From: Squalus acanthias
Taxonomy: Eukaryota
Reading direction: 5' to 3'
NCBI GenBank assembly: GCA_030390025.1
Contig: CM059449.1
Coordinates: 35,216,001 to 35,280,000 of the forward strand
DNA: 64,000 nucleotides
A program made the translations under genes and the position numbers. Positions 12,936 through 46,449 of the stretch are shown piece by piece; within the stretch, counting starts at the first letter, position 1; the number at the start of each line of letters is the position of its first letter. The notes beneath the pieces were generated by a model. That model was not told the DNA's origin. It was given only the letters and a program-made list of their open reading frames with translations, and did not search any database.

Positions 12936-13828
12936 TTATTTGATAAAATTAGTAATGAGAGCCAGTGGTCGATTAATCATATTCTTCAATTCATCTCTGA
13001 ATTTGCTCTGGGACACTGCATAAATAAACGTATTTGTGCAAGAACTCAAACACCTCAGCATATACCCGGATTGTTCCGCAATGGTGAAAGAGTCGTTGTA
13101 ATTTGTTTCTAAAAATTGAGTATCTGTAAATTGCACACATATGAGAACTATGAAATTTACCATCCATAACAGTATAAAACTGCCAGATATAGTGAGCAGT
13201 AAAATGATTGACTTTTTTCGGTTCTCAATCTCTGGATCAGTGTGCTTCTCAAGCTTGTTGTTTGCTCGGAGACCGCTCCTCACTCTATTGGCCATTACAA
13301 TGTGCCTGATGGTCAGAGCATTGAGCAGCACGATCAACACAAATGGTGCAAATGGGGTTAAAATGGTTTCCAACCACAAAAATGCTACCCATATGGGTAA
13401 GGTATAGCAGCTTGGTTTTACATAGCAGGACCATGGCACATTGTCAATTATTTCCCGAGATTCATATATGAAGTAGATTGGAACATTTTCTAAGATGCTT
13501 AAGAAACACACCACTGTTATCACCACAGTCACAGTTTTTTCAGTGCAATATTTTGTTCGCAACGCTTGGTAACAAATAGCCACAAATCGATCAAAGGTGA
13601 AACCCACCGTTAGCCAGACAGAGCAATCAATGGAAACAAAAAGCATGGCGAGATTGAAACTACAAATAGAAGTGTAATTCAGGAATGAATATGGGAAATA
13701 AGCATCGTTAATCTCATACAGAATTACTTCAAATGTCAGGACCATTAGATCAGCCACCAGGTAACGAGTGATGCATTTGGAGAGACCGCACTTTCCACGG
13801 GAGAGAATGACGATTGTCACCAAATTAG
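12936..13828 (-). CDS. GPR139/GPR142-like class A GPCR, gene A, exon 2
   Basis: TTTTTTGCAG acceptor; open frame NLVTIVILSRGKCGLSKC...FTFDRFVAIC...FILLW...CTNTFIY to stop. Phase matches exon 1, giving a 320-aa 7TM protein. Confidence 0.9.
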
Positions 13829-15176
13829 CTGCAAAAAAGGCGAAAACAAATTATTTACTCTCTTTACTCTGAGCGGATGATCAGTCGACATTTCTTTGTA
13901 TGAAATTCATGGAAAATTTTCCTATCACTCAACTATCATTCTTTTTATTTCTCCAAATCTATCAGATGATTCTAGCAATTCTGAAATGGTACATTTCTTT
14001 ATGGATACACTTGGCTAACTTATTCTGGTTAACTTCAAATCGAAATAAATGCTGCAGTGAATGACATGGTTCTATTTTCAAATTTCAAAACGACCAACAA
14101 TGGGCTTTTCCGACTCACGGCCGCCTCAATTGAATCCGCCCGATTTTCATTTCCTTTCACTTCAACAGAAAGGAATGCCCGGCTAGGTGCAAGAAGGGCG
14201 GTCGTTTTGTTTATCCCTGTTCCTCCATACACATCATGGGATAGCTTCCCAACTGTCTCCCTGGCCTAAAGCGGCGTTGCGCATCCACTAACACATAACA
14301 GCGGGTGGGCGGGAAAACACCATATTGCAGCAAATGTCAGATTGAAAATACACCCCTGTATTTCCTCATTCCAAATATCCTCAATAATCGTACAATGTAG
14401 GTTTCAGAGTGATGAAACGATCCTGAATGCAATATTCTATCATTTAGTCTTCTGGAAGCAGGTGAAAATTCCCTTCCCGTGCGTTTCCTCAGCGAATGAC
14501 CAGCAAAGAAAGATTTCTCAGTGACACATTGTTTCATGTGCACAATATAATGACACACATTTCATTCTGGATTTGACTCATCTCTGTATCGCCAGAATCG
14601 CATAAATCGAAGCAGCCGGTTAACCAACGGGAGATACGTGGGGTCTGAGCATGGGCAGAGGGAATTTTGAAGATTTAGCAGTTATTATTAGAAATGTGAA
14701 CACTGGTGTGGCTCAGATGCAGACATTTGAAGCACATTTGAAATGTTTTTTTAATAACGTGCGATAGCTATTTCTATCAAGCATAGGCTCTGGAAAGAAT
14801 GACTGTGCTTTGCAACCAAGAGCAGGATCGTCTTGGGTGGTAATTGTTGTCCCCCAATTGATAACATATAAACGGTTCTTTGGTGGCCAATCTGAGCCGA
14901 ATAATGTAAAAATCGATAGCTCTTGTCTCAGATCCAAATCTCTGTCAAGAATGGAATCTAAAGCTTTGGGAACTGTACCTTGCACATACGTAGAATTGGA
15001 AATCCCTGTGACTATAAGGACAATATTTATAATTACCATATCGCATTCTGTCTATTCCCTGTTTTGTGCCTCATGTATGACGCTGCAATTCTCTTTCCTC
15101 CAGTTATCGTGAATAGCAATTGTTTTTAAAGATCTACCAAAAAATGGATTGAAGTCTATTATTGATTTGAACTATT

Positions 15177-15917
15177 GGGCCGAAAATTGATCCCGGGACG
15201 CGAGAGTACGCACTGCATACTCTCGCGTATTCCCACTCCAATTGCCGGTTTTCTGCATGCCCTGCGCATGCGCTGAAAACCGGCAATTGCTCTTCTGAAA
15301 AGGGGGCGGGGCCTGCGTGCATCGCGTGCGCGCTACAGGCTGCGCGCACGCTGTGCACTTCATGCTGTGGACGCGCAGGTAAGTAGGGAAGATTTTGGAA
15401 ATGTAAAAAGGAGTAAGACCCGCTTTTAAGAAGGTAAGTAGTGAATTAAGTATTTTTTTGAATTTTTTTTTACAGGTATATCTTTTTTAGAGACTTTAAA
15501 GACAGGTAAGTTTATTTTTATAACTTTTTAAAAGATTTTAAATTTTTTCAAAAATTTAATTTTTTATTTAAAATGGTTAATTTAATTAACTATACTTATT
15601 TTATTAATGTGATGGTTTTTGTTTTTAATTTAATTGAGGTTTAGCTGTTATTTTGGGGGGGTGTAAGATTCATAGGTCTCACAGCCATGCTGTGAGACTT
15701 ATGAATGGAAGATGGTGTGCTGCCATTGGCTCTAACTGAGTCACGTGATCCCACAGCTCGCACGAATTAACTACGCCGCTGGGATACGCAAGCCCAGCAC
15801 AGCTGATGTCTGGAACATCAAGTTCGTGCGAGCTGGATCAGAAAAAGCATAAGCGAGGTGAGACATCGCGGGGAAGGCTTACCCCCGCGGGAACAGAGCG
15901 AGATCAATTTCTGGGCC
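15177..15917 (+). mobile_element. Hairpin-rich MITE copy M5 in the gene A intron
   Basis: TIRs GGGCCGAAAATTGATC / GATCAATTTCTGGGCC; same internal layout as M1 and M7. Confidence 0.85.
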
Positions 15918-17985
15918 AAATCTCTTGGTTTATCAAACGGGAAGAAAGGACCAGCTGCAAAGAGGGTATTTTTCACATTTACCACATGGTATGAGCTACC
16001 GACCTGGCCAGTGTAAACCTCGCCTGACTTGCATCCCATTGTTGAAGGTGGAAATGACCCCTGCATCAGGGATGTAGTATCTGCAGCAACACTATTGAAT
16101 ACAATTACTGGGGAGGGGTCTGCCGATCTCCTGTGGTAACTTCAACTCTTTACACCGTTTCTTCCGGATTACAAAGCTCTGTTATCGATGCTGTGGTGGG
16201 ATATCGGAAGAAGACCAATCGGAATTCTAATGCCGTGTCTCTACTTCTACCATGCGTCGGAAACTTGGGATAGATTGTAGGATGTATCACCTGGGGATTA
16301 AACATCAGCCGACTCTGTGGGGTAGAAATTGGTTTTCGGCAGTAGCGCTGAACAGGAGGTAGCGCATGGGCCACCTGTTATACGCCTCGCTTGATATTTA
16401 GTTCTATTGAGTTAATGGAGCTGAACATCAGACGGGGAGTGAGAGGCAGACACGATAGCGCCGTTCTACCCCGTATGTAGAAAGGGAAGGCAGCTATGAC
16501 CGCAGGTGTTAACAGAACCCGCCCGATTTTTCTTCCATTGATAGTAATGGAGGACAATCCGCTGCTTTTAGGGAAGCCTCTCCTCCGCGCAGGATTTGGC
16601 TTTTTGTGCTCGGCTCAGGCGATGCAGAACACCCCGGATGTATAGTCTAAAATCTATCCCATGGTTACCGTAGAAATCACCACTTGGACTTAGAATTACA
16701 ACAGCGTAGCAGTCGCAGGACGTTCTTTATTAGCACTTTTCTCATGTTGCTTTGCGGCCTCACAAAACTAACTGAATCCAGCTTAAAGCAACATAATATA
16801 TCGCACAGTTTCAGAATCAAACGCTTCAGTTTTCTCTATAAGCTCTATGACCGAGTAGTTGCCAGCGGTCATTAATCTCGCCTGGCACCAACACATATTG
16901 GCCACTGCGCCCATGGTTTTCGATGGCCAGTAGCAGTGATAAACCTCATTGCTGCCGTCCCAACTCGGAAAATTAGTGACCATGGACGTGGAATTGGTTC
17001 TGGACTGCGGTCTAAAGCTGGCCACAGCGAATTGGTGGCCCATTTTACCCAAATAACATTTCGTTTGACTTCCTCAGCACCACTCTGAGCTCCACAAAGA
17101 TGATTCAAAATTACCAGGTGGTGAAGACCAAAATGTACACCATGGTCAAGAGTTAGGTTATAAATGCAACGAAAACGTTGAGTTTCATCAAAAGAGGGTT
17201 CTGGATGCAAGTCTTGCCTGATGTAGGGGGTGAAATTGTTATTCGTAGTTGCACGAAATAAGCTCAAGCGAATAGGCAGTCTGCTTTACAATGCGCCCGA
17301 ATTTCTTTTCGGAAACTAACATCAGACTGGTGCAAAATGGGCTGCCCATTCTTTCCGAGCCTGTTTTGCGCTGCAGCTGAAGGCCAATGTCAGCGCCTGG
17401 GATTCGGCTTTCTGCCTTTTTGCACGCTGCTGGCCAGCTGCATGCGCCAGAAGAGTGCCCGGGGCAGCTCCCGGTTGGGAAACGCTGGGAACCATTCGGC
17501 TCCAATGCTGACCTGGCAACGGGCGGGATGCAATCCGGGGGATGCGACAGTAGGCCAACATTGCGTCAGAGTCTTTTTGTGGGCCAGGGAATATCACTGA
17601 AAATTTCACCTGGTTTCACAAATATATAACAGAATATTTCCTTTGCCTTTTCTTGGGCAGCTTCCGGGAATCCCTTTAAGAATTGTTGGTTTGGCTACTC
17701 GATCCGATACTAATACTTGGACAAAACAGAGAACTACAAGACTGTCTATCAATAAATTGCTGAATTTGTATTGTCAGAGTAAATTGTGATTCCTCTCAGG
17801 TTGTTACATTAAATATATCACAGAAACTTGGAACCAATTGAGTTATTTTTTTTGATGCCGCTAATCAGTCTCTACAAATAAAAATACATCAAAACAAACA
17901 GATAATATCATTACACTGACAGCAGCAACAGTGACACAGTGAAGCAGTGTTAAAGATGAACATTAGCTGATGATAAGCGGCTTAC

Positions 17986-18055
17986 CAGGAAGACCAACTA
18001 TTGCAAGAATAGGATAGTAAATGTTATCTATCTGTAAGATCACCGGCTGTCCCAT
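17986..18055 (-). CDS. GPCR gene A, exon 1
   Basis: 70 nt, MGQPVILQIDNIYYPILAIVGLP plus G, followed by GTAAG donor (phase 1). Confidence 0.9.
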
Positions 18056-18119
18056 ATTCGGAGAGAAGCGACGTTGCCTGTAACTGTTATGAAGATGCAG
18101 ATCTTAGCTTGCAAACCAA

Positions 18120-18260
18120 GGTCTTATTTATACCTGAGAAAAACCTCAGGTGGCACATGAGCATTACATAATGATTGGCATTAGTTACAGTCATTTAACA
18201 AACAGATTGAGGTGAGTCATAATCACTGCAACTGATCAGGGATATTTTGCAATAATTTTG
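18120..18260 (-). promoter_or_regulatory. Core promoter of GPCR gene A
   Basis: TATAAATA (18125-18132) about 70 nt upstream of ATG, CCAAT (18174-18178), TGTTTGT forkhead-like and TTGCAATAA C/EBP-like motifs. Conserved in gene B. Confidence 0.65.
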
Positions 18261-18776
18261 CCCGTTGAAAGAGTAAGGACTCCAGAATATTATTGACATC
18301 ATACGTTCCAAACAAAATATTTCGACATCTCCTTTACTGCAATCATGGTACAAGACTCCTGAAGCTGAGGATATTTAATTATAGAATCATGCAAGGCGTT
18401 TGATGGAATAAATGCGCATATTTTGATGGATTAGCTTTGTTTCTTAGTTACATCAAGAATGTACTCTATCTTCTTTAATCTATACTGAATATAATTTATA
18501 TTAAGGGGGCTCAATGCTACAGGTGAGTTTGAAGAACATTCAGATACACACAGAACGTGATATAGTCAGTTGTTTACAGCTGAGCAGACCCAGAGATGTG
18601 CAGAAATGTTAGATTTTTGGAAATATTAACAGACCTTGCACGGAAATAAAAGAGGAATGAACAGTTAAATGGCCAGTTTGAACATTCGAATGTCATTTGA
18701 GTAAAACCTCTCAAACGCTTAGCCATATGTGATCGGGAAATTTCATTAAGACATTCAATTGTTCCCCTGGCAGTGG

Positions 18777-18970
18777 TGACGTTAACTGTGCAGACCCGTC
18801 AGTCTGTGTAAAAATAAACATCCGATATTTTTTTATGGGGTTTTATTGTTCTTTGTCCACGACCTTGTGTGGAAATTCATCAAGGTCGTGGACAAAGATC
18901 AATAAAACCTCATAACAATTAACTGATTTTTATTTTTACACAGACTGACTGATCTGCGCGGTTATTGTCA
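18777..18970. repeat. Long inverted duplication (fold-back), arms ~90 bp
   Basis: Perfect 17-bp core CTTTGTCCACGACCTTG (18851-18867) / CAAGGTCGTGGACAAAG (18881-18897) around a 13-nt loop. Imperfect pairing extends outwards. Confidence 0.85.
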
Positions 18971-19830: not shown

Positions 19831-22800
19831 AGATAGAAACATAGAAAAATAAGAGCAGGAGTAGGCCATTCGGCCCTTCGAGCCTGCTCCGCCATTCAAT
19901 ATGTTCATGGCTGATCCTTTATCTCAATACCATATTCCCGCTCTCTCCCCATACCCCTTGATGCCTTTGTGTCTAGAAATCTATCTATCTCCTTATATAT
20001 ATTCAGTGACTTCGCCACCACAGCCTTCTGTAGTAGAGAATTCCACAGGTTCGCCACCCTCTGAGTGAAGAAATTTCTCCTCATCTCAGTCCTAAATGCC
20101 CTACCCCTGATACTGAGACTGTGACACCTCGTTCTAGACAGCACAGCTAGGGGAAACATCCTCCCAGCATCCAGTCTGTCTAGACCTGTCAAAATGTTAG
20201 ACGTTTCAATGAGATCCGCTCTCATTCTTCTAAACTCTAGTTAATACAGGCCTAGTCGACCAATCTCTCCTCATTCGACAGTCCTGCCTTCCCAGGAATC
20301 AGTCTGGTGAACCTTCGCTGCACTCCCTCCATGGCAAGTGACATGAATGTTGTCATTCATGACTTAAGAAGTAATACTGGGCGGCCTGCTGGTGGCGCTG
20401 TCCAGGGAGAGTATAAATACTCGGGCATGGGTCCAGCTTGCTCAGGGACATTCTTCAACAGGAACTAGCGAGGGACACAACTGGACCTGCAGTTTGGAAA
20501 ACAGTTGATTAAAGCTTTGTTTAACACTTAGACCAAGTGCCTAGTAGTTTTCTTACGTCAATTTAATCAACTGGCCTGCTGCACGCTCTGAGTAGTTTTG
20601 GGAACAGCTGACTAGGACTCAAACGGCAGAAGGGAACCAGACGTAGTAATCAATCCATCATGGAGGTACTACTCCGACCCGCCCGTCTCGACCTGTACCC
20701 GAATTCACCAACAACTGCTAAGGTATGGAAACACTGATATCGTACCTTCAGCAACTTCCTCAGGGCATGTGGTAAGAATGTTCCTGATAAGTTAGAGATA
20801 CTTGCCAATTATGTATCCCCTTATGTGTTTGATTATATCGAAGACTGTGTAGACTATGACTCCGCTATCCGAATACTATAGCAACTATATGTTAAGGCCA
20901 CAAACGAAATATTTGCTCGGCATCTACTGGCCACAACTCGACAACAACCCGGGGTATCACTTGATGAATTCCTTCAAAAGCTTCGCAGGCTCAGCAAAGA
21001 TTGTAATCTCAGTCTGTCTTAGCTGAGCAGTACCAGGAGGAGTTAATTGGCGATTTTTTTATTAAAGGAATTGCGTCTCCCTTCATAAGCGAGCGTCTGA
21101 TGGAGAATAAAACCCTCGATTTACAAGCTGCCTATGACCAGGCATATTCTCTGGACTTGGCAAAAAAAATGCAGATGCCTATCTTTTACCACGTGCACGG
21201 ACTGCTGATATCACTTTTAGTGACTCCTCCGATAAGCCTCAGCCTAAGCCCTCACTGATGACGACTCTATCCTAGCTGATGACGACCCTACTCTAGCAGC
21301 ATCTTTGCAATCTAAAGGAACTGTTTCTTCTGTGGAGGTACATTTCATTATCGGAAATTTTGTCCTGCTCGTAATGCAATCTGCAATTATTGCAGTAAGA
21401 AAGGCCACTTCTCGAACGTATGTCAGTCAAGAGCATCTTCTACAGTTACAGCTGCTTCTGTAAAACTGCTCCTCCCCGAAGAGCCACTACTAATGTTACA
21501 GCTGTCATCTATAAAACTACTCCTCCCCCAAGAGCCACTACTAATGTTACAGCCTTCAAGGATAAATCAGCCCCTCCTCCCATCACAGCTGTCTTCCCCC
21601 AAAGCCTGCCCCATGCAGCCACGAAGGTTTCGGTAAATGGATACATTTTTAGTGCATTAATTGACTCATGCAGCTCTGACAGCTTCATCAGTGAGCAGGC
21701 TTTCAATAAGTTAAAACTCTGTATTTACCCCTCGGACAGGGAAATTGCAATACCTCTGACGACACTGACCACTAACTCCTCCGGCTTTTGTCTTGTCGAC
21801 CTTATTCTCAATGGCCATCCTTATTGCTCTACCCGGCTCGGGGTGCTCAAAAACCTAAGCAGTGATGTGCTCCTGAAAGTGGATTTCCAGAAACAACATA
21901 AAAGACTCACTTTCGAGTTTTGAGGATCAAAGCTGGAGCTTACTATTTGCAAAGTATCGTTTTGTGCACTTTCGGCGGCTTCGCTCGACGAGCCCTCCCT
22001 GTTTGCCAATCTTTCCCCCCGATGTAAGCCCATAGCCACTAAATCACGACGCTTCAGCCAAGATGACCTATCCTTTATCGAGGCAGAGATCTCTCGCCTT
22101 CTAGCTGACGGTATCATTGAACCATGTTCATCTTCCTGGCGGGCTCAAGTCGTCGTTGGTAAAAATCCTCTGTAGCAACACAAGAAACGTCTTTGCATCG
22201 ATTACTCGCAAACTGCTAACCAGTACACCGACCTGGATGCCTACCCACTACCACGCATCGATGACATGTTCAATAACCTTGCTAACTACAAGGTATTTTC
22301 AACTTTTGACTTAAAGAGCGCATACCAGCAAGTACCGTTAAAGGACTCTGACAAAAAGTATACGGCTTTTGTGGCCAATGGTCGGCTTTACCAGTTTCGT
22401 CGCCTTCCATTCGGGATCACCAATGGGGTGGCCGTCTTTCAACGGGCAATGGATAGCCTAGTCAAACAGGAGAATTTAACGGACACTTTTCCATATCTGG
22501 ATAATATCACCATTGCTGGTCATGACCAGAAGGAGCATGATGCCAACCTCCAGAAATTTCTTGACGTTCTCCGTCGTCGCAACTTAACCTTAAATGTGTC
22601 CAAATCTGTGAAATCAGTACCATCAGTCAACATCCTTGGCTACTGGGTGGACAAAGGTGTCATCGAACCGGATCCGGAGCGATTTTGTCCTCTTCAGAAG
22701 CTCCCTCCTCCTACGAATCTCAGCTCTCTTCGTCGGGCCCTTGGCATGTTCGATATTATGCGAAGTGGATACCTCACTTTTCCAACAAGATCCAGCCCCT

Positions 22801-25800
22801 GCTTCATGCGAAGTCATTTCCGTTGGAGGCGAGGGCTATTTCAGCTTTCGATCTCCTCAAGCAACAACTGGAAAAGGCCGCGCTTCATTCCATCGATGAA
22901 AATCTCCCTTTCGTGTTCGAGTGCGATGCATCAAAGGTGGCGATCTCAGCTACCTTGAATCGAGGCGGTCGACCTGTTGCATTTCTGTCTAGAACTTTGC
23001 AGGGTAGCGAGCTCCATTACCCTCCTGTCGAGAAGAAGGCTATGGCTATCATCGAAGCAGTACATAAATGGAGTCATTTTCTCGCTGGTCGGCATTTCAG
23101 CGCTCGGTGGCCTTTATGCTGGATAACCGGAAACCCACCAAAATCAAGACTGACAAAATACAGCTCTGGAGGATGGAATTGGCCGCCTTTGGCTACACCA
23201 TACAATATCGACCCGGCAAGGAGAATGTGGCCCCGGATACCCTCACGCTTGCATTCTCCTCTTCCATGTCAACTTCGACTCTTGCGGATCTTCATACTGA
23301 CTTATGCCATCCTGGCGTTTCCCGTATGTTGCACTCTGTGCGGTCTAAAAATCTCCCATTTTCTACGGAAGACATGAACAGAACATACTCCACTTGTAGA
23401 ATTTGCACGGAATTAAAACCGCAATTCTTCTGTCCGTCGGATGGCTCACTCATACACGCCACACAGCCTCTGCTGCGACTCAGCATTGATTTTAAAGGCC
23501 ATTGACTTCCTCAACGCGAAACACCTACCTGCTTACTATGGTGGACGATTATTCACGCTTTCCCTTTGCTTTCCCCTGTCCCAATATATTTACTTCCAAA
23601 GTGATGAAATGCCTCGATCAGGCCTTTTCCCTTTGCGGTACGGCCAATTTCATCCACTCTGATCGGGGACCCACCTTCATGTCAAGCAAACTTAAAAGTT
23701 ATCTTTCCCAACGGGGAATCGCCAGAAGTAAAACGACACCACATCATCCTATTGGAAATGGACAGGTTGAGAGATACAACGCTATCATTTGGAACGCTGT
23801 TCGTCTTGCACTGAGGTCACGCAATCTACCAGACCATCAGTGGGAAACTATGCTCCCCGATGCGTTGAATTCCATCAGGTCTCTTCTTTCTACATCCACC
23901 AATGTTACTCCTCATGAACGATTCTTCGGGTTCCAGCGTCGCTCCACTCATGGGACGTCTCTACCATCATGGTGGGCTGCTCCTGGCTCCATGCTGCTCC
24001 GAAGATTCGTCCGATCCTCCAAGAGTGATCCCCTCATCGACGAGGTGGAACAAATTGATGTCAATCCTACATACGCGTACGTGCGGGATCCTGATTCCCG
24101 GGAGTCCACAGTTTCACTTCGGGATCTGGCTCCCTGCCCAACCGGTCCCACGGACCCAATCGATAGAGAGACCTGTATTAATAATGCCAATACACCGCGC
24201 TCCTCCGAGGATGACTCTCTACCCGGGACATCAAGGGATCTGCCAGCTACTCCGCTGGATCAACCCGGGAAACAGAGCGCTCCCCGCAGGATTGCCACAC
24301 GGAGACAGGACGCCGGTCAATCACCAGCTACTGAGCAGGATGAAGCCAGCTCTGCGCCGGTATTGACCCGGACCTGGAGCCACCATCTCCCCAGTCCCCC
24401 TGAGGACGATCAAGGCGACACGGACTCTGCCAGCCCGCCGGTATGAACCAAACGAACCAGGGACCAAAACACTGTCCGAGGAGACTTGCCTTCCGGCCTC
24501 CAACGGAGACCCAAGCGACTGCGTATATTCTTAGTGTGTCTATTTCGGTAGAAGGAAGCCGCCGGACTTCCAATCTTTCAGGTGGGAATAATGACATGAA
24601 TCTTGTTATTCATGACTTATGAAGAAATACTGGGCGGCCTACTGGTGGCGCTGTCCAGGGAGAGTATAAATACTCGGGCATGGGCCCAGCTTGCTCAGGG
24701 ACATTCTTCAACAGGAACTATGGAGGGACTCAACTAGACCTCCATGTTGGGAAACAGTTGATTAAAGCTTTGTTTAACGCTTAGAGCGAGTGCCTAGTAG
24801 TTTTCTTACGTCAGCAAGTAGATCATTTCTTTAGGTAAGGAGATCAAAACTGCACACAGTACTCCAGGTGTGGTCTCACCAAGGCTCTGTATAACTGCAA
24901 TAAGACATCCTTGCTCCTGTACAAAAATCCTCTTGCAATGAAGGCCGTCATACCATTTGCCTTAGTAACTGCTTGCTGCACCTGCATGTTTGATTTCAGT
25001 AACTGGTGTACAAGGACACCCAAGTCCATCTGTACATCAACATTTCCCAATCTATCACCATTTACATAATACACTGCCTTTCTCTTTTTCCTACCGAAGT
25101 GGATAATTTCACAGTTATCCACGTTATACTGCATCTGCCATGTATTTTCCCACTCACTCAACTTGTCTAAATTGCCTTGAAGCCTCTCGCACCCTCCTCA
25201 TAACTCACAATCCCACCTAGTTTTGTGTCATCAGGAAACTTGGAAATATTACAGTTGGTTCCCTTATCCATATCATTGATGTATATTGTGAATAGCTGGG
25301 GCCAAAGCACTGATCCCTGCGGAACCCCCCTAGTCACCGCCTGCCACCCCGAAAAATACACATTTATTCCTACTCTTGGTTTCCTGTCTGTTAACCAATA
25401 TTCAATCCATGGCAGTTTATTTCCCGCAATCCCATGTGCTTTAATTTTCCACACTAACCTCTTATGTGGGGCTTTATAAAAGGTCTTCTGAAACTCAAAA
25501 TACACCACATCCACTGGTTCTCCCTTATCTATTCTACCAGTTTCATCCTCAAAGAACTCCAGTAGGTTTTTCAAACACGATTTCCCTTTCATAAATCCAT
25601 GTTGACTTTGTCTAATCCCGTTGATATTTTGTAAGTGTCCTTTATAATAGACTTTAGCATGTTCTCTACTGCTGATGTTAGGCTCACCAGTCTGTAGTTC
25701 CCTGTTTGCTCTTTCCCACCTTTTTTAAATAGCGTGGTTAAATTTTCCACCCTCTAATCTGCAGGAACTGTTCCATAATCTATAGAATTTTGGAAGATGA

Positions 25801-31338: not shown

Positions 31339-32852
31339 CTGGAGAGGTCCCAGCGGATTTGACACCCGCAAATGTAACACCCCTATTTAAGAAAGGAGGG
31401 AGGCAGAAAGCAGGAAACTATGGACCAGTTAGCCTAATATCTGTCGTTGGGAACATTTTGGAGTCCTTCATTCAGGAAGCAGTAGCAGGGCATTTGGAAA
31501 ATCATAAAGCAGTCAAGCAGAGTCAGCATGATTTTAATAAAGAGAAATCATGTTTAATAAATTTGCTGAAGTTCTTTGAGGATATAACGAGCAGGGTGGA
31601 CAAAGGTGAGCGAGTGGACATGGTGCATTTGGATTTCCAGAAGTCATTCGATAAGGTGCAACATAAAAGATTACTGCATAAGATAAGAGCTCACGGAGTT
31701 GGGGTTAAAATATTAGCATGGATAGAGAATTGGCTGACTAGCAGAAAGCAGAGAGTCGGTATAAATTTGTCATTTTACAGTTGGCAAATGGGAACTAGTG
31801 GGGTGCTACAGGGATCAGTGCTGGGGCCTCAACTATTTACAATGTATATTAATGCCTCGGATGAAGGGACCGAGTGTAATGTAGCCAAGTTTGCGGATGA
31901 TACAAAGATGGGTTGGAAAGCAAGTTGTGCAGAGGACTCAAAGAATCTGCAAAGGGATCTTGAATCGCTAAGTGAGTGGGAAAACATTTGGCAGATGGAT
32001 TATAATGTGGGAAAGTGCGAGGTTATCCACTTTGGCAGGAAAAATAAAAAAGCAAATTATCATTTAAATAGAGAGAGATTACAAAATGCTACAGTTGAGA
32101 GCGAACTGGGGGTTACCTTGTGCATGAAACACAAAAAGTTAGCATGCAGGTACAGCAAGTAATGAAAAAGGAAAATAGAATGTTGGCCTTTCTTGCAAGT
32201 GGGTTGGAGTATAAGAGCAGTGACGTCCTGCTACAATTGTACAGGGTATAGGTGAGACCACATCTTGAGTACAATTTTGGTCTCCTGAATAAAGGAAGGA
32301 TATACTTGCATTGGAGGCAGTTCAGAGACGATTTACTAGGTTAATTCCAGAGATGAGGGGGTTGACTTATGAATAAAGGTTGAGCAGGTTGGGCCTTTAC
32401 TCATTGGAATTCATAAGAATGAGAGGTGATCTCATTGAAACATATAAGATACTGAGGGGACTCGACAAGGTAGATACAGATAGGACTTTTCCCTTCGTGG
32501 GGAAATCTATAACCCGGGGGTATAGTTTCAGAATAACGGGTCGCCCTTTTAGAACTGAGATGAGGAAAATTTTCCTCTCTCAGAGGGTAGTAAATCTGTG
32601 GAATTCTCTGCCCCAGAGAGCCGTAGAGGCTGGGTCATTAAATACATTTAAGGTGGTGATAGACAGATTTTTGCAAGATAAGTGATTGTAAGGTTATGGG
32701 GAGCGGACAGGGAAGTGGCTTTGAGCCCAAGATCAGCCATTACCTTATTGAATGGCGGAGCAGGCTCGAGGAGCTAAGTGGTCTATTCCTGCTCCTCTTT
32801 CTTATGTTCTTATGTCCCAATATTGGATAGTTGCCAGGCCATCAAAGATAAT

Positions 32853-33523
32853 GGCCCGTATTTTCCCGGCAGGCCTCCCGCGGGCGGAGGCCTGCGATCT
32901 GGAAAAATCGACGTCCTTACCTGAGGGCTCCCGGGACGCACACGCTTCCGCTCCTGGGCCTTTCCAAACTCCAAGTGCACAGGGCACACGTATCCCAGAG
33001 GTGCATGTAGTTCGCAGCGTCCCTGGGCTCACGTGGACCAAGAGGAGCCAATCAAAGAAGGGAATCTCCCTTCATACACTTGAAGGGAAGACGTGTCAAA
33101 TATGTGAATGGAGATCACCCCAAAAACCTAGTAAAACTTTAAATATATTTTTTTAAATTACATGTTTAAAATGTTTTGAAATTACAATAAATGAAGTATT
33201 TTAAACAAACATTTAATTTTTTGAAAATAATAATTAAATTATTACGGGGCTAAAAATAAACTTACCTCTTTTTAAAAGTGTTTTTACCAGGCGTAAGAAT
33301 TGTAAGGATTTCCTGTGGGCGGAGGGTCTCCAAAAAGTGGAACTGTACGCCCGCAGAAGCCCTTCTCTAGGGCAGCCGGAGGATCTGTCAAGACCATTCT
33401 TGACGTATCGGGAATGCCGGTATTCAGCCCATGCACTGTGTATGCCTGAAACCGGCATTTCCGATGTCCCTACGGGTAGGTACGCAGCGGGTACCCACCC
33501 GTAGGGATCGGAATATCTGCGCC
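32853..33523 (-). mobile_element. Hairpin-rich MITE copy M6
   Basis: TIRs GGCCCGTATTTTCC / GGAATATCTGCGCC; similar to M2 and M3, with an internal deletion. Confidence 0.85.
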
Positions 33524-35306
33524 ATTATTCTTTCTGTCGGCAAATAAATAAATATCTCCAGCGGAAACCTATTAATCAGTGATTTTCACCTACTCCCGAC
33601 TTTCAATAGAATGTACATCGATACCAAATTGAAATCCGTTCAGGAATCAAGCTCAGGTGATTTATGTTATTCAGGTATACACTCACACATCTTTTCACCA
33701 GGCATTCCTCTCACGATACTTCAAAGCCATCCTGTATATCTTGAAAGAACTGTTGTTTGAAGATGCAAAGATGTTCGATTTTAATCCTTAACTCCCCAAG
33801 ATGTCCAATATACATCACTCCAGGTTGTCCAATGTTCATCATACTTTTGTAAAACGAATATTATTTTTACTTCCACCATGCTCAGCTGTGGCGACTACAC
33901 TCTTCATTATTTAACGTCCATAATCTTACTTGTCTGTATAACTACTTCAGTGGCAGTATGTTCAGCGGGGAGGGCTGATGCCTTGCAGCAGGAGCCGCCT
34001 GGAAATGAAATGGCTTTTTCCTCATGGCAGCCGTGGACCATGAGAGATCAGCTGGTGTTTGCATCTCCAATGTCAAAGTAAAGTCTGGAAGTGGTGACAT
34101 GAATCGAGTACGGTTGGAAAAAGCAGATATAAAGGTGAGGAAGCCGGTGACAAAGGTTAAGGTATTACACTAATAGTCTCTGAAACTGATATTACATTAG
34201 CTAACAGATTGCATGCAGTGTCCAATAAAGCAGATGTCTATAAGAAGGAAAAACATTGAATTTATCCAGAAAATTCTGCGACCCTCTGACAGAATATAGA
34301 ATGACTCCAGGGTCCACTTCCAATTCCAGCCCCCACCCCCCAACCAGGACTGGTAATCCGCTTGAGATACGCACCAGCCCACGAATTTTGGGCTCCCAAA
34401 GTTTGCTTCAAAGGCAAACGTGCCAACGGCTGGGCCAACGTGGCCCTCTTGAGTGAGATTGATGCCAATTTGGGTCACTTTGGAGCTGTGGTCCAAACAA
34501 GGAAGAGCCTCTCGCTCCTGAAACAAAGGGATCAGGGGAAAATACAAATTAATGTTAGAGCTGGGAACTGAGTTTCAGCTGTTAGTGATTCACTTACACC
34601 TCTGAATTTTAAGGCGCTCAAAATAACTTGGAAATCTATACTGAACCATTGAGTATTTTTATTGGTGTACAATAGTCAGTTTCTTAGTAAATCAGTGTTT
34701 TTACCTGTAGAAACTTTTATAACGTGTCGACTGGTGCCTGTGCGCCTGAGAAAAGCTCAATTAGAGGACACTCATCGAACAGACACAATGGGCGGAAACT
34801 CGCCACGCTCATTATTTCGATCTGGGGGCGTGGCCAACTTTGTGGGCGGGGCCGGTTTCGGGCAAAATGACTTTTAAACCAGCGTTAAAGATCGCGGAAA
34901 CTTGATTTACGCTGATGTAACGCACACTTGATTTTGCACTGGTTCAGTTAATTTCACGCGGATTGCACTGATAAATCAAGCAGAAACTCTACTCCTTTAA
35001 ATTTAACTTAATGGTTCTTTTTGCTAATAAGGCACTTCAGGCATAACCCTTGGCTTTATAAACAATAGAGTCATTCATTATATAGCAGAAAAATACCGCA
35101 ATAGAATTAAACGACATCCACAATTGATCCATAATTTAGAATTGTATTAACAACAATAAGAACTCCCAAAATGGGTTCCCTTATTTGAAAACAAAAACAT
35201 GTCCCAGAATAACATCTTAATGAAAATTTTGCATCTACTCATGGTTGGCTCAGACTTGCACAGGCCCTCAAAATATCTCGGTGCCACCGGGTTGTGACGT
35301 AGCACC

Positions 35307-35520
35307 TGGTCTGGAGCCAGTTTATGGAGATCTACAGCAGGTCTGGAGCCAGGTTATGTAGATTTTCAGCTGGTCTGGAGCCAGGTTATGGAGATCTTCA
35401 GCAGGACTGGAGCTTGGTTATGTAGGTGTTCAGCTGGCCTGGAGCCAGGTTATGGAGATCTTCAGCAGGACTGGAGCTTGGTTATGTAGGTGTTCAGCTG
35501 GCCTGGAGCCAGTTTATGCA
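35307..35520 (+). repeat. 32-bp minisatellite, ~6.6 copies
   Basis: CTGGAG starts at 35311, 35343, 35375, 35407, 35439, 35471 and 35503. Two unit variants alternate. Confidence 0.95.
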
Positions 35521-40207: not shown

Positions 40208-40342
40208 CAACACCAGGTTATAGTCCAACAGCTTTATTTGAAATCGCAAGCTTCACCTGACGAAGAAGCAGCGCTCCGAAAGCTTGTAATTTCACATAAA
40301 GCTGTTGGACTATAACCTGGTGTTGTGCGACTTCTCACTTTT
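40208..40342. mobile_element. Fold-back Penelope family B pLTR fragment with a central hammerhead
   Basis: Arms 40208-40253 and 40280-40325 are inverted copies. Hammerhead CAC CTGACGA AGAAGC AGC GCTCC GAAA GC T T GTA at 40254-40288. Confidence 0.8.
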
Positions 40343-40700
40343 TATAGTCTGGAGCCCAAAACTCTGCAGAATACCACATGTGCGGCCTGACCATGATCCG
40401 ATACAAATTTAACAAAACTTCATTACTTTTGAATTCTATACTCCTGTAAATACATCCCAGTGCTTTGTTAGCATTTTAATTGCTTTGGTGACCTGCGATG
40501 CTGCTTTAAATGATGTGTTCACCTCTATCCCTGGATCCCTTTACTCTTCGTCCCCATTCAGTTTCTTATTTTCTTCGGGTCAGGGATTGTTTATACTTTT
40601 CCTACCAAAGTGCATCACCTCACAATAATTAATGTTAAAGTTAATCTGTCAGTAACTGCCCAGTCTGCAAGTTAGTTTAATATTTGTTGATTTGTATATT
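40343..40700 (-). mobile_element. Old CR1-like RT fragment (also 39645-39850)
   Basis: Decayed match to the WQINFNI..CEVMHFGRK...RDLG and downstream CR1 motifs. Confidence 0.55.
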
Positions 40701-42689
40701 TCCTCGTGTATATTGAATCCCTTTTCACAAATTACGTTGAAATAAAATCAATTTAAAAACATATTTGAAGTTAATTTACCTGAACGATAATTTCGACTTA
40801 TTTCGTTATGTATTAATTATAATGTGGCTCAGTGCAAATTCCCTGTATAAAGCACTTACTGGCTGTGTTGTTACTATTTCTTCAGTTTACTATGTTTACC
40901 TGACGATTATCTGTGCAGTTGTATTTTTAAAACAAACATTCGTTAATTTACGCTGAGTTTTTGCCTCTTCTACATCTCAATATTAACAAGCCAACAGTAT
41001 AAAACATTGTTAACGTTTTTATTGAATCTTTGAAATTAAATGATACGTTAAGCGGTTCTGAATTTATTCAACGATTGTCTGTTAAAGCAATCAGTTGTTG
41101 TTAAAGTCTGAAACACTTCATTAATTTTCAAGAACCAATGATAAATCGCTGACTTCAGTATCTACAGAGAGATTTCTGACAAGGATAATTTCACATTCTT
41201 GGCCATCCATCAAAATGTTGTCAGATCCTGGGATCCTCCCACTCCCACCAATGGTGTCACATACTTCCTACTGCTCCCCCGATAGAAAACAGATTCCACT
41301 AACCGTGTCTACAAGACTCCGGTTTTATCTCTACGGTACTGCCAAAGGAATGGATTCTGCAGGGACCAATTCCCCGAATACCCCATTCCCAGCTCAGCTT
41401 AAACACAAGCGCCCCACTTCTCCCCACCCAGTGTCAATTAACCTCAGAACCACCCCTGCAGCTTTGCAGAACGCGTGGCCATCCAGCCATCTCATCAGGG
41501 AAGGCGACCAGCAGATGTTTCCCACTGGCACTGAGGGGAAAATAGAACTGAAGCCATCCAACTTCTTGCAGCGTAACTGGCTACAGAGCAGCATTAACAG
41601 AGGTATGGGAAACGGCCGCTTTAATGACTGCACTGAGGGAGCTAAAGGAGAGCTACCTGCAAGGAGAAGAACCATTAAAAGAGATTGAACAAGTCACTTC
41701 ATTCTCTGTACTGTGCTCTGCACCATCATCGCGGGAAGGTCTAACATTTGGATTTCACTCCCTAGATTACAAAGTTGCTTAACTAGAACCTGAGAAGTTC
41801 AAACACCAGACTTGCATTGGATCAAAGAACACGCTGAAATAATCATCGGGAATCAATTGCTTTATTGCTGAAACAACTCTATCTGCAAAAACATTTCACT
41901 CAGGCCTTATGTCGCAGACATTTTATGAAAATATTACACATTTGCTTAACATTGAAGAAACATTGTCAAATCTCATCTATAATTGCGCAAACTGATTTTA
42001 CATATTGACCACGCGGAATAAAGGCACGCCAGGGATTTTAAAGTAAGTTTTGTTAATGTTGATACATTCCTAATTAACACAAACTTGATTTCTTTTTCAA
42101 TTCATCTCTTGAAGGCTTGATTCCGACTTTGGCCTCAGGTAAACAGTTTCCTATTGTGAGCAGGAACAGGGACCATGTAGCTTTGTCCTTCCATAGGACC
42201 ACTGACTTTGGGCCCGGTCTCCCTACTGCTGACTCTAACCTATTCCCTGCTACCAGAAAATATGTATCCGTATAATTACTATATTTAAACAGGACTATGC
42301 AACCTGAGCTTTTCCCGTGTACATTTGCGTTCACACTTTGGCTGCCATTCCGGACCCGAGCCATTCAATACTTTTCCACTTCTCCCCCACCCACATCTTT
42401 TCCTTTTCTCTCTATCCCTCCCTAACCGCTCTCTCCTGTCGTCATGCCTCCTTTCATCTCTCCTCTCTCGGACATTCTGCCCTCTCAAATCACTACCCCA
42501 ATTCTTCAATACCCTACTACCCTACTACTCTCCTGCCGCCGTTTGAGGCTTTCCTCCCTCTTAGATAAGCCTGCAGCTTCATTCTGTGCCTCTGTTGGCA
42601 TCCTACGAAGGGCCCATAGAGGCACTCGTCGCTACCCCCTTACGAGCAGCAACCCCAACTGTCCCATCCTACTCTCCCACCGACCTTCC

Positions 42690-43060
42690 CGTCCAACCCG
42701 CCAATGGGGGCTAATCTTAACAATCTCCTCCGCGTCCAACTCATCCCTCCCAGTGCTGACACTGTGGACGCCGGCAGTGGGGCAGCCATCACGAACCCTC
42801 TCCGCATCTCCCTCCAGAATGTCCGGTCACTTGTGAACAAGGCCCTTGCCATTCATCAACTTATCGTGGATCATTGCATCGACATATTGGCTCTGACGGA
42901 CCCTGGTTGAGGGGTATTGACACCTTAACCTTAAATGAAGCCTCCCCACCTGGCTATATCTTCCACCACTTGCCCCGCTGAGACCGCTGTTTTTGCGGTG
43001 TGGCTCTCATCACCAAATCGTATTTTGGTCTGTCCCTCTACTCCTCCGACACTTTTTTCT
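42690..43060 (+). mobile_element. L2/CR1-group LINE APE endonuclease fragment
   Basis: LRISLQNVRSLVNKALAIHQLIVDHCIDILALT...NEASPPGYIFHHLPR. Confidence 0.75.
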
Positions 43061-44118
43061 CCTTTGAGCATCTCATCTTATTTCAGTTCTCTCACCTCTC
43101 AATTAAAATCTCGTTCTCTGGCACCTGTCACACTGTCACATCTCAGCACATTTATTGCAAAACTGCTGCTATTTAATCCTGGATTCATAATCTGATTTTT
43201 CTAAATCTAATAATCGTGTCCCATCATTACTAAATGTTAGAACTTTGCCTCTATTGGGCAACATTTAAGCTCACCCACTGCCCTGCAGTTGAGCCGCATA
43301 ACTCCCACACCAGCTCTCTGATATTGTAGAACACCAACATTTTACCAAAATCTAACCCACCCACCTAATCCTGCCGAAGCTCACAACTAACCCCCAATCC
43401 CAGCATTATCGTTAAGTGGCGGAGACAGTGCTTCATCGTGTTATCTCTTCTCAAACACTTTATTGTGAGCTAGAGCTTGTAAACAGGTAAGACATGAATT
43501 CAGATCGTAGCTGACGATTTTGTAAATCCGAAATAAGACCACGGAATCCGCGTTCAAACAGGAATGGACAAAATCAGTGAATTATTTGGCTGAATAAATG
43601 TTAAAAAGAAGGATATCATGTAATAAAATGCACTTACTCAGTCACCTTAAAGCAGTAGCAGTGAGAGTATGGAATGATTCTTATCGAGCTGATCCCCTCT
43701 GTAATTCTAAATTACCACGGCCGTGGTTTGCAGTTTCTGCACTCTCGAACTAGCAAGCCCTGTCCCCCGTTTTTCATTTTAATTGGAAATAAAATCAGGC
43801 TGGCGAGCACAGAAACAGGAAACGCCGTTCCATATCATTTCACTGAGGGTGATTATTCGACGGGACATGCTTCTGTGCACATTTCTATTGAACAATTTGG
43901 GTCCATTTGCAGGGCTGTAATTGAATTAATTTTAGTTTGGGATGACAGTGTCGAATGGATTCTGTCACATTAGCTGCCCATTATACTCATCTTCCTGTTT
44001 CCTTTGTATTTCAGACAATGCCTCCCGGTGTGCGGGCAATTCGATATCGTCCCTTTTGTATTCATTCCCACAGTTTAAATGATTCCTGTAGTGTTTGAAT
44101 TCGGTGAAGCCATTTAAC

Positions 44119-45014
44119 TTACTTAAAAAATTGCATTATTAATCCCAGAGGACACTTAATTATATTTATCAGCTCATCTCTGAATTTACTCTGGGACACT
44201 GCATAAATAAACGTGTTGGTGCAACAACTCAAAGTGCGAAGCATATACCCGGATTGTTCCATAATAGTGAAAGGGTTATTGTAATTTGCTTCAAAAAATT
44301 GAGTATCTGCAAATTGTACCACTATATAATATATGAATCTGATCATCCATAAAAGTATAAAATTGCCGGATATGGCGAGCAGTAAAATTATGGATTTCTT
44401 TCGGTTCTCCGTCTCTGGATCATTTTGTTTCTCAGCATTGTTGTTTCCCCGAAGTCGCCTTCTCGCTCTATTGGCCAGTACAATGTGCTTGGTGGTCAGA
44501 GCATTGAGCAGTAAAATGAACACAAATGGAACAAATGGGGTTAAAACTGTTTCCAGCCACAGAAATGTTACCCATATGGGTGAGGTATAGAAGCTTGATT
44601 TTACAATGCAGGACCATGGCACATTGTCAATTATTTCCCGAGGTGCAAATGCAAAATAGATTGGAACATTTTCTGAAACGCTCAGCCCACACACCACTGC
44701 TATCACCACAACTGCAGTTTCTTTGGTGCAATATTTTGATCGCAACCTTCGGCAACAAATGGCCACAAATCGATCAAAGGTGAAAGCGACAGTTAGCCAG
44801 ACAGAACAATCAACGGAAGCAAAACACAAGGACAGATTGAGACGGCAAATGGGAGTGTAGTTCAGAAATGAATATGGAAAATAAGCATCATTAATCTCAT
44901 ACAGTATTACAGCAAATATCAGGACCAGTAGATCAGCCGCCACCAGATAATTGCTGATGCATTTGGAGAGACCGCACCTTCCCCGGGAGAGAACCACAAT
45001 TGCCGCTAAATTCG
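44119..45014 (-). CDS. GPR139/GPR142-like class A GPCR, gene B, exon 2
   Basis: CTCTCTGCAG acceptor; open frame NLAAIVVLSRGRCGLSKC...FTFDRFVAIC...CTNTFIY. With exon 1 it gives 321 aa; clear paralogue of gene A. Confidence 0.9.
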
Positions 45015-45130
45015 CTGCAGAGAGGAGGAAGATGAATTTACTGACTCTCCTTATATTAAAAGGATGATCACTCGCCAATTTATTGCTATAAAAATTCAGG
45101 AATTTCTAACCTTGGCCTCAAAAGTCTCTC

Positions 45131-45314
45131 CGGGGTTATTTTAACCGAACACGCAGGGTGAAAAACCCACGGGATGGAGGGCATCGCTCGATTTACTCCC
45201 CGCCCAATATTACTCTCCATTATCTTCAGTAGAGAGTAGAATTGCACAGTGTTGAACCAGCGCTGCTCCCGATCCTATCAGTTTCCGAGGGGTGTGTTAG
45301 GTAATCATTTCCCC
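45131..45314. mobile_element. Small (~180 bp) MITE with a central palindrome
   Basis: Ends GGGGTTATTTTAACC / GGTAATCATTTCCCC; centre CTCTCCATT...AGTAGAGAG. Half of a homologous copy sits at 1122-1208. Similar decayed elements occur near 14080-14330, 16370-16660, 43690-43930 and 56560-57050. Confidence 0.6.
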
Positions 45315-45924
45315 ACAGCGGGAGATTTATTGGTTGGGGCGCTGAAAGGAAATTCTGGCTAAGGCCCACTTGTTAACACAACCCGCCGCAATTTCCTTCG
45401 CTTGATATTAATTTGAAGGAAAATTCATCGGATTATTCAAAGGTGCTGGTTCCAGCCCCCAGTTTGTCGTATCCGTCCAACCCGGCCGGAAAGTATAACA
45501 TCTCTCCCATAGCTGCCGGTGCGATCATTACAAACTCTGCCGCAACTTGACTTTGGCATTCTGGCAGCTTGTTGGCCTTTCCTGTGATGGCTCACAACAT
45601 TAACTGGCCTCAATTTAATGCAGCATCCAATATCGATCAGTTTCCACACTCGCAGCCTTCAGGGTTACCCTGTGAGTGTAAACTTTCCAAATATTTGGCC
45701 GCTTTTCGAGATCTCGCCTTTCACCAAAATGCAGTGGCAAATGCGCCCAATGTTTACGGATTTCTGGAAACAGTGACAAACAATCTCTGCTGAGGGCACA
45801 TTCCAAAAACATCAGTGGCAAACTGGCATTGATGGATATTTTGAACTTTTCTACAATATTAGCCATCCAGAACACAGGTGCGATGCTAATATTTTACCGG
45901 ATTGAAAATTAGATATAAGAATAG

Positions 45925-46105
45925 ATAATGCTATAAAGGTTCAGCAGGTAAGACAGCATATGCGGCGAGAGAAACATAGTTAATGTTTTAGGTCGATGAT
46001 CTTTCATCAGACCTGGTCATCGAACTGAAGCTTTAACTGTGTTTCTCTCTCCACTTGTGTTACCTGGCCTGCTGAGGTTTCCATAATCCACTGTATTTCG
46101 CTTCT
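45925..46105. mobile_element. Decayed fold-back Penelope family A pLTR fragment in the gene B intron
   Basis: Antisense pLTR end followed by sense pLTR end, switching inside the hammerhead motif near 46010. Confidence 0.7.
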
Positions 46106-46379
46106 GAAAATTACAAGAATCTCTACAAAGGAGACGCAATCCCACCTAAATTGTTTCATTTAATATTTCTGGAGAAATTGTGCTGCCCGTCAGGTTATTA
46201 CATTTAGAATATGTCGGAAACTTGGGATTTTCTAATTATTAGTTGTTTGATGGTGGTAATCAGTGTCTGTACATCAATCACATCTAAACAAACAAATATT
46301 ATCAATACAGCGACAGCAGGAACAGTGACACAGTGAGACACTGTTAAAGATGAATAATAACAGATTAGTAGTGGCTTAC

Positions 46380-46449
46380 CAGGAACACCAACTATTGCAA
46401 GAATAGGGTAGTAAATGTTTTCTATCTGTATGATCACCGGCTGTCCCAT
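46380..46449 (-). CDS. GPCR gene B, exon 1
   Basis: 70 nt, MGQPVIIQIENIYYPILAIVGVP plus G, followed by GTAAG. Confidence 0.9.

What the first reader, a model, noticed from the sequence alone, without database searches (positions are those of the whole stretch)
12936..46449. Tandem birth-and-death array of orphan GPR139-like receptors: candidate lineage-specific sensory family
Seen: two open two-exon genes and one pseudogene unit within 47 kb. They have a very short N-terminus, DRF for DRY, CTNTFIY for NPxxY, and FILLW in TM6. Known: mammalian GPR139 and GPR142 are single-copy aromatic amino acid sensors, and clustered birth-and-death evolution typifies chemosensory and immune receptors. Inference: this is part of an expanded, functionally uncharacterised small-ligand receptor repertoire. 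The ORF track misses the true N-termini because exon 1 is only 70 nt.
Basis: partly seen in the sequence, partly recalled or inferred. Interest (0 to 1): 0.7.

Follow-up and report, generated by a model that had tools for sequence, protein, structure and literature searches.

The report
Shark receptor family, damaged local copies
This stretch of shark DNA holds three copies, one dead and two probably damaged, of a very large family of orphan cell-surface receptors found in sharks, rays and chimaeras, whose highly variable binding pockets suggest an undescribed set of chemical detectors.

Summary
Two open two-exon GPCR genes (70-nt first exon, GT-AG intron) and one wrecked unit form a tandem array in a shark genome. 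They belong to a large GPR139-related clade: 113 of the top 120 of 2,285 hits are named shark or ray proteins, and a chimaera member nests inside. They are not GPR139 orthologues. Pocket positions are about twice as variable as other helix positions in the clade (2.74 vs 1.43 bits) but not in a conserved relative (0.71 vs 0.83), which fits a diversified ligand repertoire. dN/dS between the two genes is 0.38. The local copies may therefore be dying. The expansion is not species-specific: gene B is sister to an intact sawshark gene. Three polar Trp/Phe-site residues of GPR139 are replaced, so the ligand probably differs. A sensory role is unproven; I have no expression data. The family carries automatic annotation, but my searches found no paper describing it. 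This scan noted it before on another piece of this genome.

The parts
17986..18055 (-). Gene A coding exon 1 (70 nt, ATG to phase-1 GT donor)
   Evidence: 66 of 70 nt identical to exon 1 of gene B
12936..13828 (-). Gene A exon 2 (end of TM1 to stop); 320-aa class A GPCR after splicing; intron 13829-17985
13752..13757 (-). Site of the 12-nt in-frame deletion in TM2 of gene A (YLVAD against family YLVAMAxAD)
18125..18132 (-). TATA-like box (TATAAATA) 77 nt upstream of the gene A ATG; function not shown
   Evidence: same box in gene B, lost in unit C
46380..46449 (-). Gene B coding exon 1 (70 nt)
44119..45014 (-). Gene B exon 2; 321-aa class A GPCR after splicing; intron 45015-46379 (1365 nt)
44935..44943 (-). 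Site of the 9-nt in-frame deletion in TM2 of gene B (YLVAAD)
   Evidence: a paralogous contig under the same species label carries 9 extra letters behind 44938 (table 4)
46520..46527 (-). TATA-like box 78 nt upstream of the gene B ATG; function not shown
4110..4182 (-). Unit C exon 1 relic (start codon and splice donor lost), within a homologous block 4067-4692
1327..1924 (+). Unit C exon 2 relic, inverted relative to its exon 1; 4 stops, 1 frameshift, cut after TM5 by a repeat starting near 1927
10031..11303 (-). Displaced upstream flank of unit C, homologous to 46961-47183 and 50760-51351 upstream of gene B; separated from the promoter by an insertion at 4697-10029

Best explanation
The window is a piece of a tandem cluster of an old radiation of GPR139-related class A GPCRs in cartilaginous fishes. 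SHOWN: three duplicated units (upstream flank, TATA-like box, 70-nt exon, intron, main exon); a large clade in sharks, rays and a chimaera; a nearly invariant signalling core; variable pocket positions; purifying selection between A and B. INFERRED: the family works as a repertoire of detectors, each paralogue tuned to somewhat different extracellular ligands and feeding one conserved G-protein output, as olfactory and MRGPR-type families do (analogy recalled). In this subfamily the pocket is acidic (D3.37, E/D5.42, E7.35, E/D2.57), so cationic ligands (amines, basic amino acids or basic peptides) are more likely than Trp/Phe. The copies here show the death side of turnover: C is dead, and A and B each lost about one helical turn of TM2, separately and recently, probably by slippage on a short GC-rich repeat. 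My odds: family identity 0.95; diversified-ligand repertoire 0.7; external chemosensory organ 0.3-0.35; A non-functional 0.7; B non-functional 0.5.
For: Family size and range: 2,285 proteins at E<=0.001 among 3,178 candidates; 113 of the top 120 are named shark or ray proteins and 7 are unnamed. 139 clusters at 50% identity reach E<=1e-30, a count that includes fragments and a few outgroup proteins. Of 19 representatives looked up within the clade, 17 are elasmobranch, 1 chimaera, 1 without taxon. GPR139 is the best solved relative of the family profile, E 9e-19 against 4e-13 for the next. dN/dS A vs B 0.38, bootstrap 0.28-0.56, dS 0.39. Entropy at 24 pocket vs 123 other helix positions: wide set 2.74 vs 1.43 bits (p 8e-8), close set 1.58 vs 0.86 (p 7e-5), conserved relative 0.71 vs 0.83 (p 0.48). 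TM2 deletion in 0 of 102 covering close homologues and 0 of 75 covering segments of the wide set; Met2.46 in 118 of 118. A+B as one clade is rejected, p-AU 0.0002; B is sister to intact sawshark P0004, SH-aLRT 99.2. Positions 2x42-2x46 lie on the common activation pathway and A2A L2x46R abolishes agonist potency (PMC6954041, passages).
Against: No expression, ligand or coupling evidence. Against non-pocket positions of the extracellular half only, the pocket excess is weaker (p 0.0045 wide set, 0.077 close set). A and B differ at 6 of 24 pocket positions, the same 25% as overall. The pocket positions are standard class A numbers from recall, and the wide set may include mispredicted or dying genes. 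Apart from the TM2 deletion, A and B look healthy: 2 and 3 departures at 87 conserved columns against a median of 2, with ordinary branch lengths. The AlphaFold model of B exon 2 keeps a continuous 31-residue TM2 helix, and B places Leu at 2.46. Two separate deletions at one site, with none in 177 relatives, are not fully explained by a slippage hotspot. The clade has modest support (0.894 without its deepest member, 0.104 with it), and true GPR139/GPR142 were not in the tree.
Confidence: 0.6

Rival explanations
1. The family is an external chemosensory repertoire (olfactory organ, taste buds or skin chemosensory cells), an unrecognised vertebrate chemoreceptor class for waterborne amines, amino acids or peptides.
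For: Clusters, turnover and pocket variability; very short N-terminus; sharks are reported to have few olfactory receptors and a 'relative paucity' of GPCRs (PMC8455134, passages). The Atlas neighbours include FMRFamide-like and Srw-domain clusters, and FMRFamide-like receptors expanded to about 450 clustered genes in a snail (PMC11589774, passages).
Against: No tissue data. The main text of the catshark sensory-organ paper has no word starting 'gpr', and its top 50 olfactory genes held no GPCR (PMC11979771, passages); that list also lacks the known olfactory receptors, so it is weak evidence. Its supplement could not be read.
Confidence: 0.33
2. The family is an internal surveillance repertoire on leukocytes, gut cells or somatosensory neurons that detects cationic peptides or metabolites, a convergent stand-in for the MAS/MRGPR receptors.
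For: Acidic, variable pocket. Cartilaginous fishes are reported to lack MAS1 and its relatives (PMC8455134, passage). GPR142 acts in pancreas and gut (PMC7318219, passage). That MRGPRs sense cationic peptides is recalled.
Against: No expression data. Nothing in the sequence separates this from the external reading.
Confidence: 0.3
3. The expansion is largely neutral: repeat-rich DNA keeps duplicating a redundant receptor, and copies decay without gaining new ligands.
For: The window is full of LINE, LTR and other repeats; 1 of 3 units is dead and 2 of 3 are damaged; A and B show no pocket-specific divergence.
Against: dN/dS 0.38 over dS 0.39; simulated neutral ORFs survive in about 1% of runs at 5% divergence; the clade holds chimaera, ray and shark members; variability is concentrated at the pocket.
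Confidence: 0.15
4. Genes A and B are working receptors with a shortened TM2: loss of one helical turn pulls ICL1 residues into the helix and changes basal activity rather than killing the receptor.
For: Both deletions are about one turn and in frame; no other lesion; promoter, splice sites and conserved columns intact; continuous TM2 helix in the model of B; Tyr or Trp occurs at 2.45 in 5 of 102 homologues.
Against: Absent from 177 relatives; removes an invariant Met; in A it puts Arg at 2.45 and Tyr at 2.46 if D2.50 stays in register. A structure model does not show function.
Confidence: 0.3
5. The two TM2 deletions are assembly or sequencing errors and the real genes are intact.
For: Two lesions at one site in one assembly and none in 177 relatives is improbable; the site has a palindrome and short direct repeats.
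Against: They differ in length (12 and 9 nt), both keep the frame, and unit C in the same window keeps the full-length motif. No other indels appear in the two ORFs.
Confidence: 0.1
6. These are orthologues of mammalian GPR139 or GPR142 and sense Trp/Phe.
For: Automatic names; GPR139 is the best PDB match to the profile; F3.33, W3.41 and W6.48 are kept.
Against: True GPR139 is 70% identical between human and zebrafish (PMC7318219, passage), whereas gene B scores only E 1.2e-4 against it, below the vasopressin V2 receptor. H3.37, H5.42 and N7.39 are replaced by D, E and Y. The genes are many-copy.
Confidence: 0.03

Closest known systems
Human GPR139 (PDB 7VUG, 9M42) and GPR142
   Same: Class A; best solved match to the family profile (E 9e-19); two exons (PMC7318219, passage); TM7 motif without proline; F3.33, W3.41, D3.49, R3.50, W6.48 kept.
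   Different: Single-copy and highly conserved, against many copies here; H113, H187 and N271 replaced by D, E, Y; P6.50 lost; C3.25 present here and not aligned in GPR139; gene B alone matches only at E 1.2e-4.
RefSeq/UniRef 'probable G-protein coupled receptor 139' gene models of sharks, rays and chimaera
   Same: This is the same clade; best identities 85% (A to P0012) and 80% (B to P0004), both sawshark.
   Different: Automatic names only, and inconsistent (sex peptide, FMRFamide, vasopressin, galanin receptor-like). None of 102 covering sequences has the TM2 deletion.
Conserved GPR139-like gene of fishes, amphibians and reptiles (coelacanth XP_005988539; possibly one of the 'GPR210' sets of Rinne et al. 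2019, PMC6504862)
   Same: Short N-terminus, ERF, proline-less TM7; a near relative of the family.
   Different: A separate clade with its own shark members (P0283, P0286, P0290) and a nearly invariant pocket. The match to GPR210 was not verified.
Salamander 'probable GPR139' (XP_069092602 cluster)
   Same: Sister to the cartilaginous-fish clade in my tree, support 0.843; best non-shark hit among those named (E 1e-62).
   Different: One cluster in three salamander species; keeps P6.50; Asn at 2.50.
Birth-and-death GPCR repertoires (OR, TAAR, V2R, MRGPR; snail FMRFamide-like receptors)
   Same: Clusters, pseudogenes, conserved core and variable pocket.
   Different: Different ancestry; no expression or ligand data for this family. 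The vertebrate families are recalled; only the snail case was read (passages).

Membership tests
Class A GPCR | 7tm_1 profile above the curated cut-off and seven-helix fold | tested here: met
   65 bits against 30.5; model with TM helices, Foldseek hits all class A peptide or chemokine-type receptors among the 50 listed
Class A GPCR | Core residues N1.50, D2.50, C3.25, R3.50, P5.50, W6.48, N7.49, Y7.53 | tested here: met
   present in A and B
Class A GPCR | P6.50 (CWxP) and P7.50 (NPxxY) | tested here: not met
   V/I at 6.50 and T at 7.50; human GPR139 also lacks P7.50
GPR139/GPR142 group (broad) | GPR139 is the nearest characterised receptor | tested here: met
   profile search of PDB: E 9e-19 against 4e-13 next; only receptors with solved structures were compared
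GPR139/GPR142 group (broad) | Shared intron position just before N1.50 | not testable with these tools
   two exons in GPR139 read in PMC7318219; the position in the human gene is recalled, not checked
GPR139 orthologues | High conservation across vertebrates, single copy | tested here: not met
   E 1.2e-4 to human GPR139; 18-30 close paralogues per species in three sharks among 120 hits
GPR139 orthologues | Trp/Phe site F109, H113, H187, W241, N271 | tested here: not met
   2 of 5 kept (F, W); D, E, Y at the others (residues from PMC5430874 abstract and PMC6367278 passages)
GPR139 orthologues | Grouping with GPR139 in a tree | not tested
   no GPR139 or GPR142 sequence was returned as a stored protein
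Chemosensory receptor repertoire | Tandem clusters with gene birth and death | tested here: met
Chemosensory receptor repertoire | Variable pocket on a conserved core | tested here: met
   weaker against extracellular-half positions alone, and not seen between A and B
Chemosensory receptor repertoire | Expression in chemosensory cells and response to environmental ligands | not testable with these tools
   no suitable RNA data or assay
Intact member of the shark clade | Full TM2 motif with Met2.46 | tested here: not met
   A lacks 4 and B lacks 3 residues; 0 of 177 covering relatives do

The most novel reading that the evidence does not exclude
Cartilaginous fishes have an unrecognised class of chemoreceptors, built from the GPR139 lineage and radiating since before the shark-chimaera split, with scores to hundreds of genes per genome expressed in sensory cells and tuned to cationic small molecules or peptides. 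It would offset their small OR repertoire.
Probability: 0.3. Interest if true: 0.85.

Novelty: new variant of a known kind. Interest (0 to 1): 0.55.

Why it matters
Sharks are described as poor in olfactory receptors and GPCRs generally (PMC8455134, passages), yet they carry a large, old, pocket-diversified receptor family that sits under a misleading automatic name and that my searches did not find described. If it is sensory or immune, it changes the account of how cartilaginous fishes detect chemicals, and existing catshark tissue RNA-seq can test this at once. It also gives natural variants of the GPR139 scaffold, a drug target. The window's own two genes are poor representatives, because both are probably damaged; assays should use intact relatives.

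Tried and rejected
No whole genome is held, so no genome-wide count. No RNA holder was listed for gene B; three runs with the same species label, guessed to be RNA, were laid at 80% likeness: none of 119, 113 and 105 laid contigs was 99% alike or more, no joint across the intron was listed, and some contigs cover intron sequence, so this says nothing on expression of gene B. An amphioxus query meant to pull in true GPR139/GPR142 returned only 11 amphioxus-type proteins; the coelacanth query returned its own clade. Foldseek did not single out GPR139 (rank 47 of 50 listed), so fold search does not resolve the family. A shared origin of the two TM2 deletions was rejected by the AU test (5,000 resamplings, below the 10,000 the program advises). 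Further units between A and B: none by tblastn or exon-1 blastn. Literature: gpr139+shark 4 papers, gpr139+expansion+cartilaginous 1, receptor 139+elasmobranch 0, GPR139-like 0, and searches showed no title or abstract on this family; the 24 whale shark supplement files had no GPR139. The catshark supplement, bioRxiv supplements and subscription journals were not seen and could hold a description. I did not fold gene A or an intact control, because an exon-2-only model is not comparable, and did not run a complex prediction.
Full report
1. What is in the window. Six-frame listing shows two long GPCR frames on the minus strand, both matching Pfam 7tm_1. Each has a 70-nt first exon with a GTAAGC donor and a phase-1 intron before the TM1 Asn: gene A 18055-17986 plus 13828-12936 (320 aa), gene B 46449-46380 plus 45014-44119 (321 aa). 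They are 75% identical in protein and 82.5% in coding DNA. A third unit, C, is dead: its exon 1 relic (about 4182-4110, minus) has lost ATG, donor and TATA-like box, and its exon 2 relic (1327-1924) lies on the plus strand with 4 stops, a frameshift and no TM6-7. All three share upstream and intron blocks at 64-82% identity in the same orientation, so they arose by duplication of a multi-kilobase unit, and exon 2 of C was inverted later (inference). The rest of the window is mostly mobile DNA.

2. The family. A search with gene B found 2,285 proteins among 3,178 candidates; of the 120 listed, 113 are named from sharks or rays (mostly 'probable G-protein coupled receptor 139') and 7 are unnamed. 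These include 30 from sevengill shark, 23 from horn shark, 18 from sawshark and 14 from a skate, at 90% clustering; 22 of the 23 horn shark and 16 of the 30 sevengill hits share one contig length, which I read as clusters. A profile search of 1.84 billion representatives gave 139 at E<=1e-30, fragments included. Of 19 representatives looked up inside the clade, 17 are elasmobranch, 1 is Callorhinchus and 1 shows no taxon. The chimaera protein nests beside this window's subfamily (support 0.95), so the radiation began before chimaeras and sharks split. Outside lie a salamander gene (sister, 0.843), a conserved gene of fishes, amphibians and reptiles with its own shark members, and amphioxus proteins (116 of 128 sequences kept after a coverage filter). 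Support for the whole clade is modest, and true GPR139/GPR142 were not available for the tree. The genome is a shark; the closest matches are sawshark.

3. Relation to GPR139. The family profile finds human GPR139 first among solved structures (E 9e-19; next 4e-13), but gene B alone scores E 1.2e-4, while true orthologues are 70% identical from human to zebrafish (PMC7318219, passage). So the genes are relatives, not orthologues. Loss of P6.50 is typical of this clade. GPR139 needs F109, H187, W241 and N271 (PMC5430874, abstract) and H113 (PMC6367278, passage) for activation. A and B keep F3.33 and W6.48 but have D3.37, E5.42 and Y7.39. In the 120 close homologues D3.37 occurs 114 times, E or D at 5.42 109 times and E7.35 111 times. 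An acidic pocket points to cationic ligands; this is inference.

4. Selection and diversification. dN/dS between A and B is 0.38 (bootstrap 0.28-0.56) at dS 0.39 (Nei-Gojobori). Mean entropy at 24 standard pocket positions (numbering recalled) against 123 other helix positions is 2.74 vs 1.43 bits in the wide set (101 aligned segments of 50%-level representatives of 250 aa or more, p 8e-8) and 1.58 vs 0.86 in the close set (p 7e-5). The conserved fish-reptile relative, as a control, gives 0.71 vs 0.83 (p 0.48). Against extracellular-half positions alone the excess is smaller (p 0.0045 and 0.077), and A and B themselves differ at only 6 of 24 pocket positions, the genome-wide rate for the pair. 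The pattern fits a repertoire with many ligands and one output, but does not say where it acts.

5. The family reads YLVAMAxADL in TM2; A reads YLVADL and B YLVAADL. None of 102 close homologues covering the site (18 of 120 did not cover it), none of 75 covering wide-set segments and none of 109 control segments has such a gap, and Met2.46 is present in 118 of 118. A paralogous contig under the same species label carries the 9 letters that B lacks. With those columns removed, B is sister to the intact sawshark protein P0004 (0.993; SH-aLRT 99.2) and an A+B clade is rejected (p-AU 0.0002, 24 sequences). The deletions are therefore separate events. The intact motif holds the palindrome GCCATGGC and, in that contig, two GTGGC copies 12 nt apart, which suits slippage. 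Positions 2x42-2x46 are on the common activation pathway and L2x46R silences A2A (PMC6954041, passages). With D2.50 in register, A has Arg at 2.45 and Tyr at 2.46, and B has Tyr and Leu. Otherwise both genes look normal (2 and 3 departures at 87 conserved columns; median 2), and simulation says a neutral frame survives 39% of the time at 1% divergence and about 1% at 5%, so any death is recent. The model of B exon 2 keeps a continuous TM2 (pLDDT 75), which neither shows nor excludes function. Why two neighbours were hit at one site that is intact in 177 relatives remains unexplained; an assembly error is possible but unlikely.

6. Literature. Searches showed no paper on this family (listings and abstract starts). 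Rinne et al. (PMC6504862; passages and supplement search) name extra GPR139-related sets in bony fishes, 'GPR210', and the word shark does not occur. The whale shark paper speaks of a relative paucity of GPCRs and of missing MAS1 relatives in cartilaginous fishes (PMC8455134; passages and 24 supplement files). The catshark sensory paper has no 'gpr' word in its main text; its supplement was unreadable (PMC11979771). A GPR139 review links the receptor to invertebrate MIP/proctolin receptors (PMC12208981, passages), and a snail has about 450 clustered FMRFamide-like receptors (PMC11589774, passages).

7. Verdict. The sensory reading is a fair hypothesis at about one in three. The two local genes are probably damaged. 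Novelty: new variant of a known kind. Interest 0.55.

Noticed in passing
window 20339-24813: LTR retrotransposon with 222-nt terminal repeats 92% identical and frame-broken protease, RT, RNase H and integrase in gypsy-type order, inserted upstream of gene A.
   Followed up: partly
window 4697-10029: Insertion of 5.3 kb with 610-nt direct terminal repeats (81% identical) that splits the upstream flank of unit C; no Pfam match in the one internal ORF tested.
   Followed up: partly
window 1927-2532, 3284-4045, 5565-6318, 15199-15793, 32840-33532, 62617-63221: A 600-750 nt repeat family with an AT-rich centre, in both orientations; one copy cuts exon 2 of unit C and one sits in the intron of gene A.
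   Followed up: no
window 18777-18970, 40208-40325, 58191-58367: Self-complementary stretches of 120-195 nt (81-88%), probably head-to-head repeat ends or MITE-like elements.
   Followed up: no
window 53852-55754: Degraded region with a weak DDE_Tnp_4 match (E 0.036) and an acidic low-complexity tract, possibly a Harbinger-type transposon relic (family name recalled).
   Followed up: no
window 60293-61021: Open frame of 242 aa ending in a YIGET-type motif that recalls a Penelope GIY-YIG endonuclease; no Pfam match.
   Followed up: no
window 35306-35518: Minisatellite of 32-nt period, 6.6 copies, with a 64-nt higher-order unit.
   Followed up: no
proteins P0223, P0283-P0400: A conserved GPR139-like gene with a nearly invariant pocket in sharks, bony fishes, amphibians, turtles and squamates; no bird or mammal among the named hits of the 120 listed; two models are fused in name with TMEM183A. 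An unnamed orphan receptor with a probably conserved ligand.
   Followed up: partly
proteins P0217, P0269-P0272: A salamander receptor that falls sister to the shark clade and has Asn in place of D2.50; a possible relic of the founding gene in tetrapods.
   Followed up: partly
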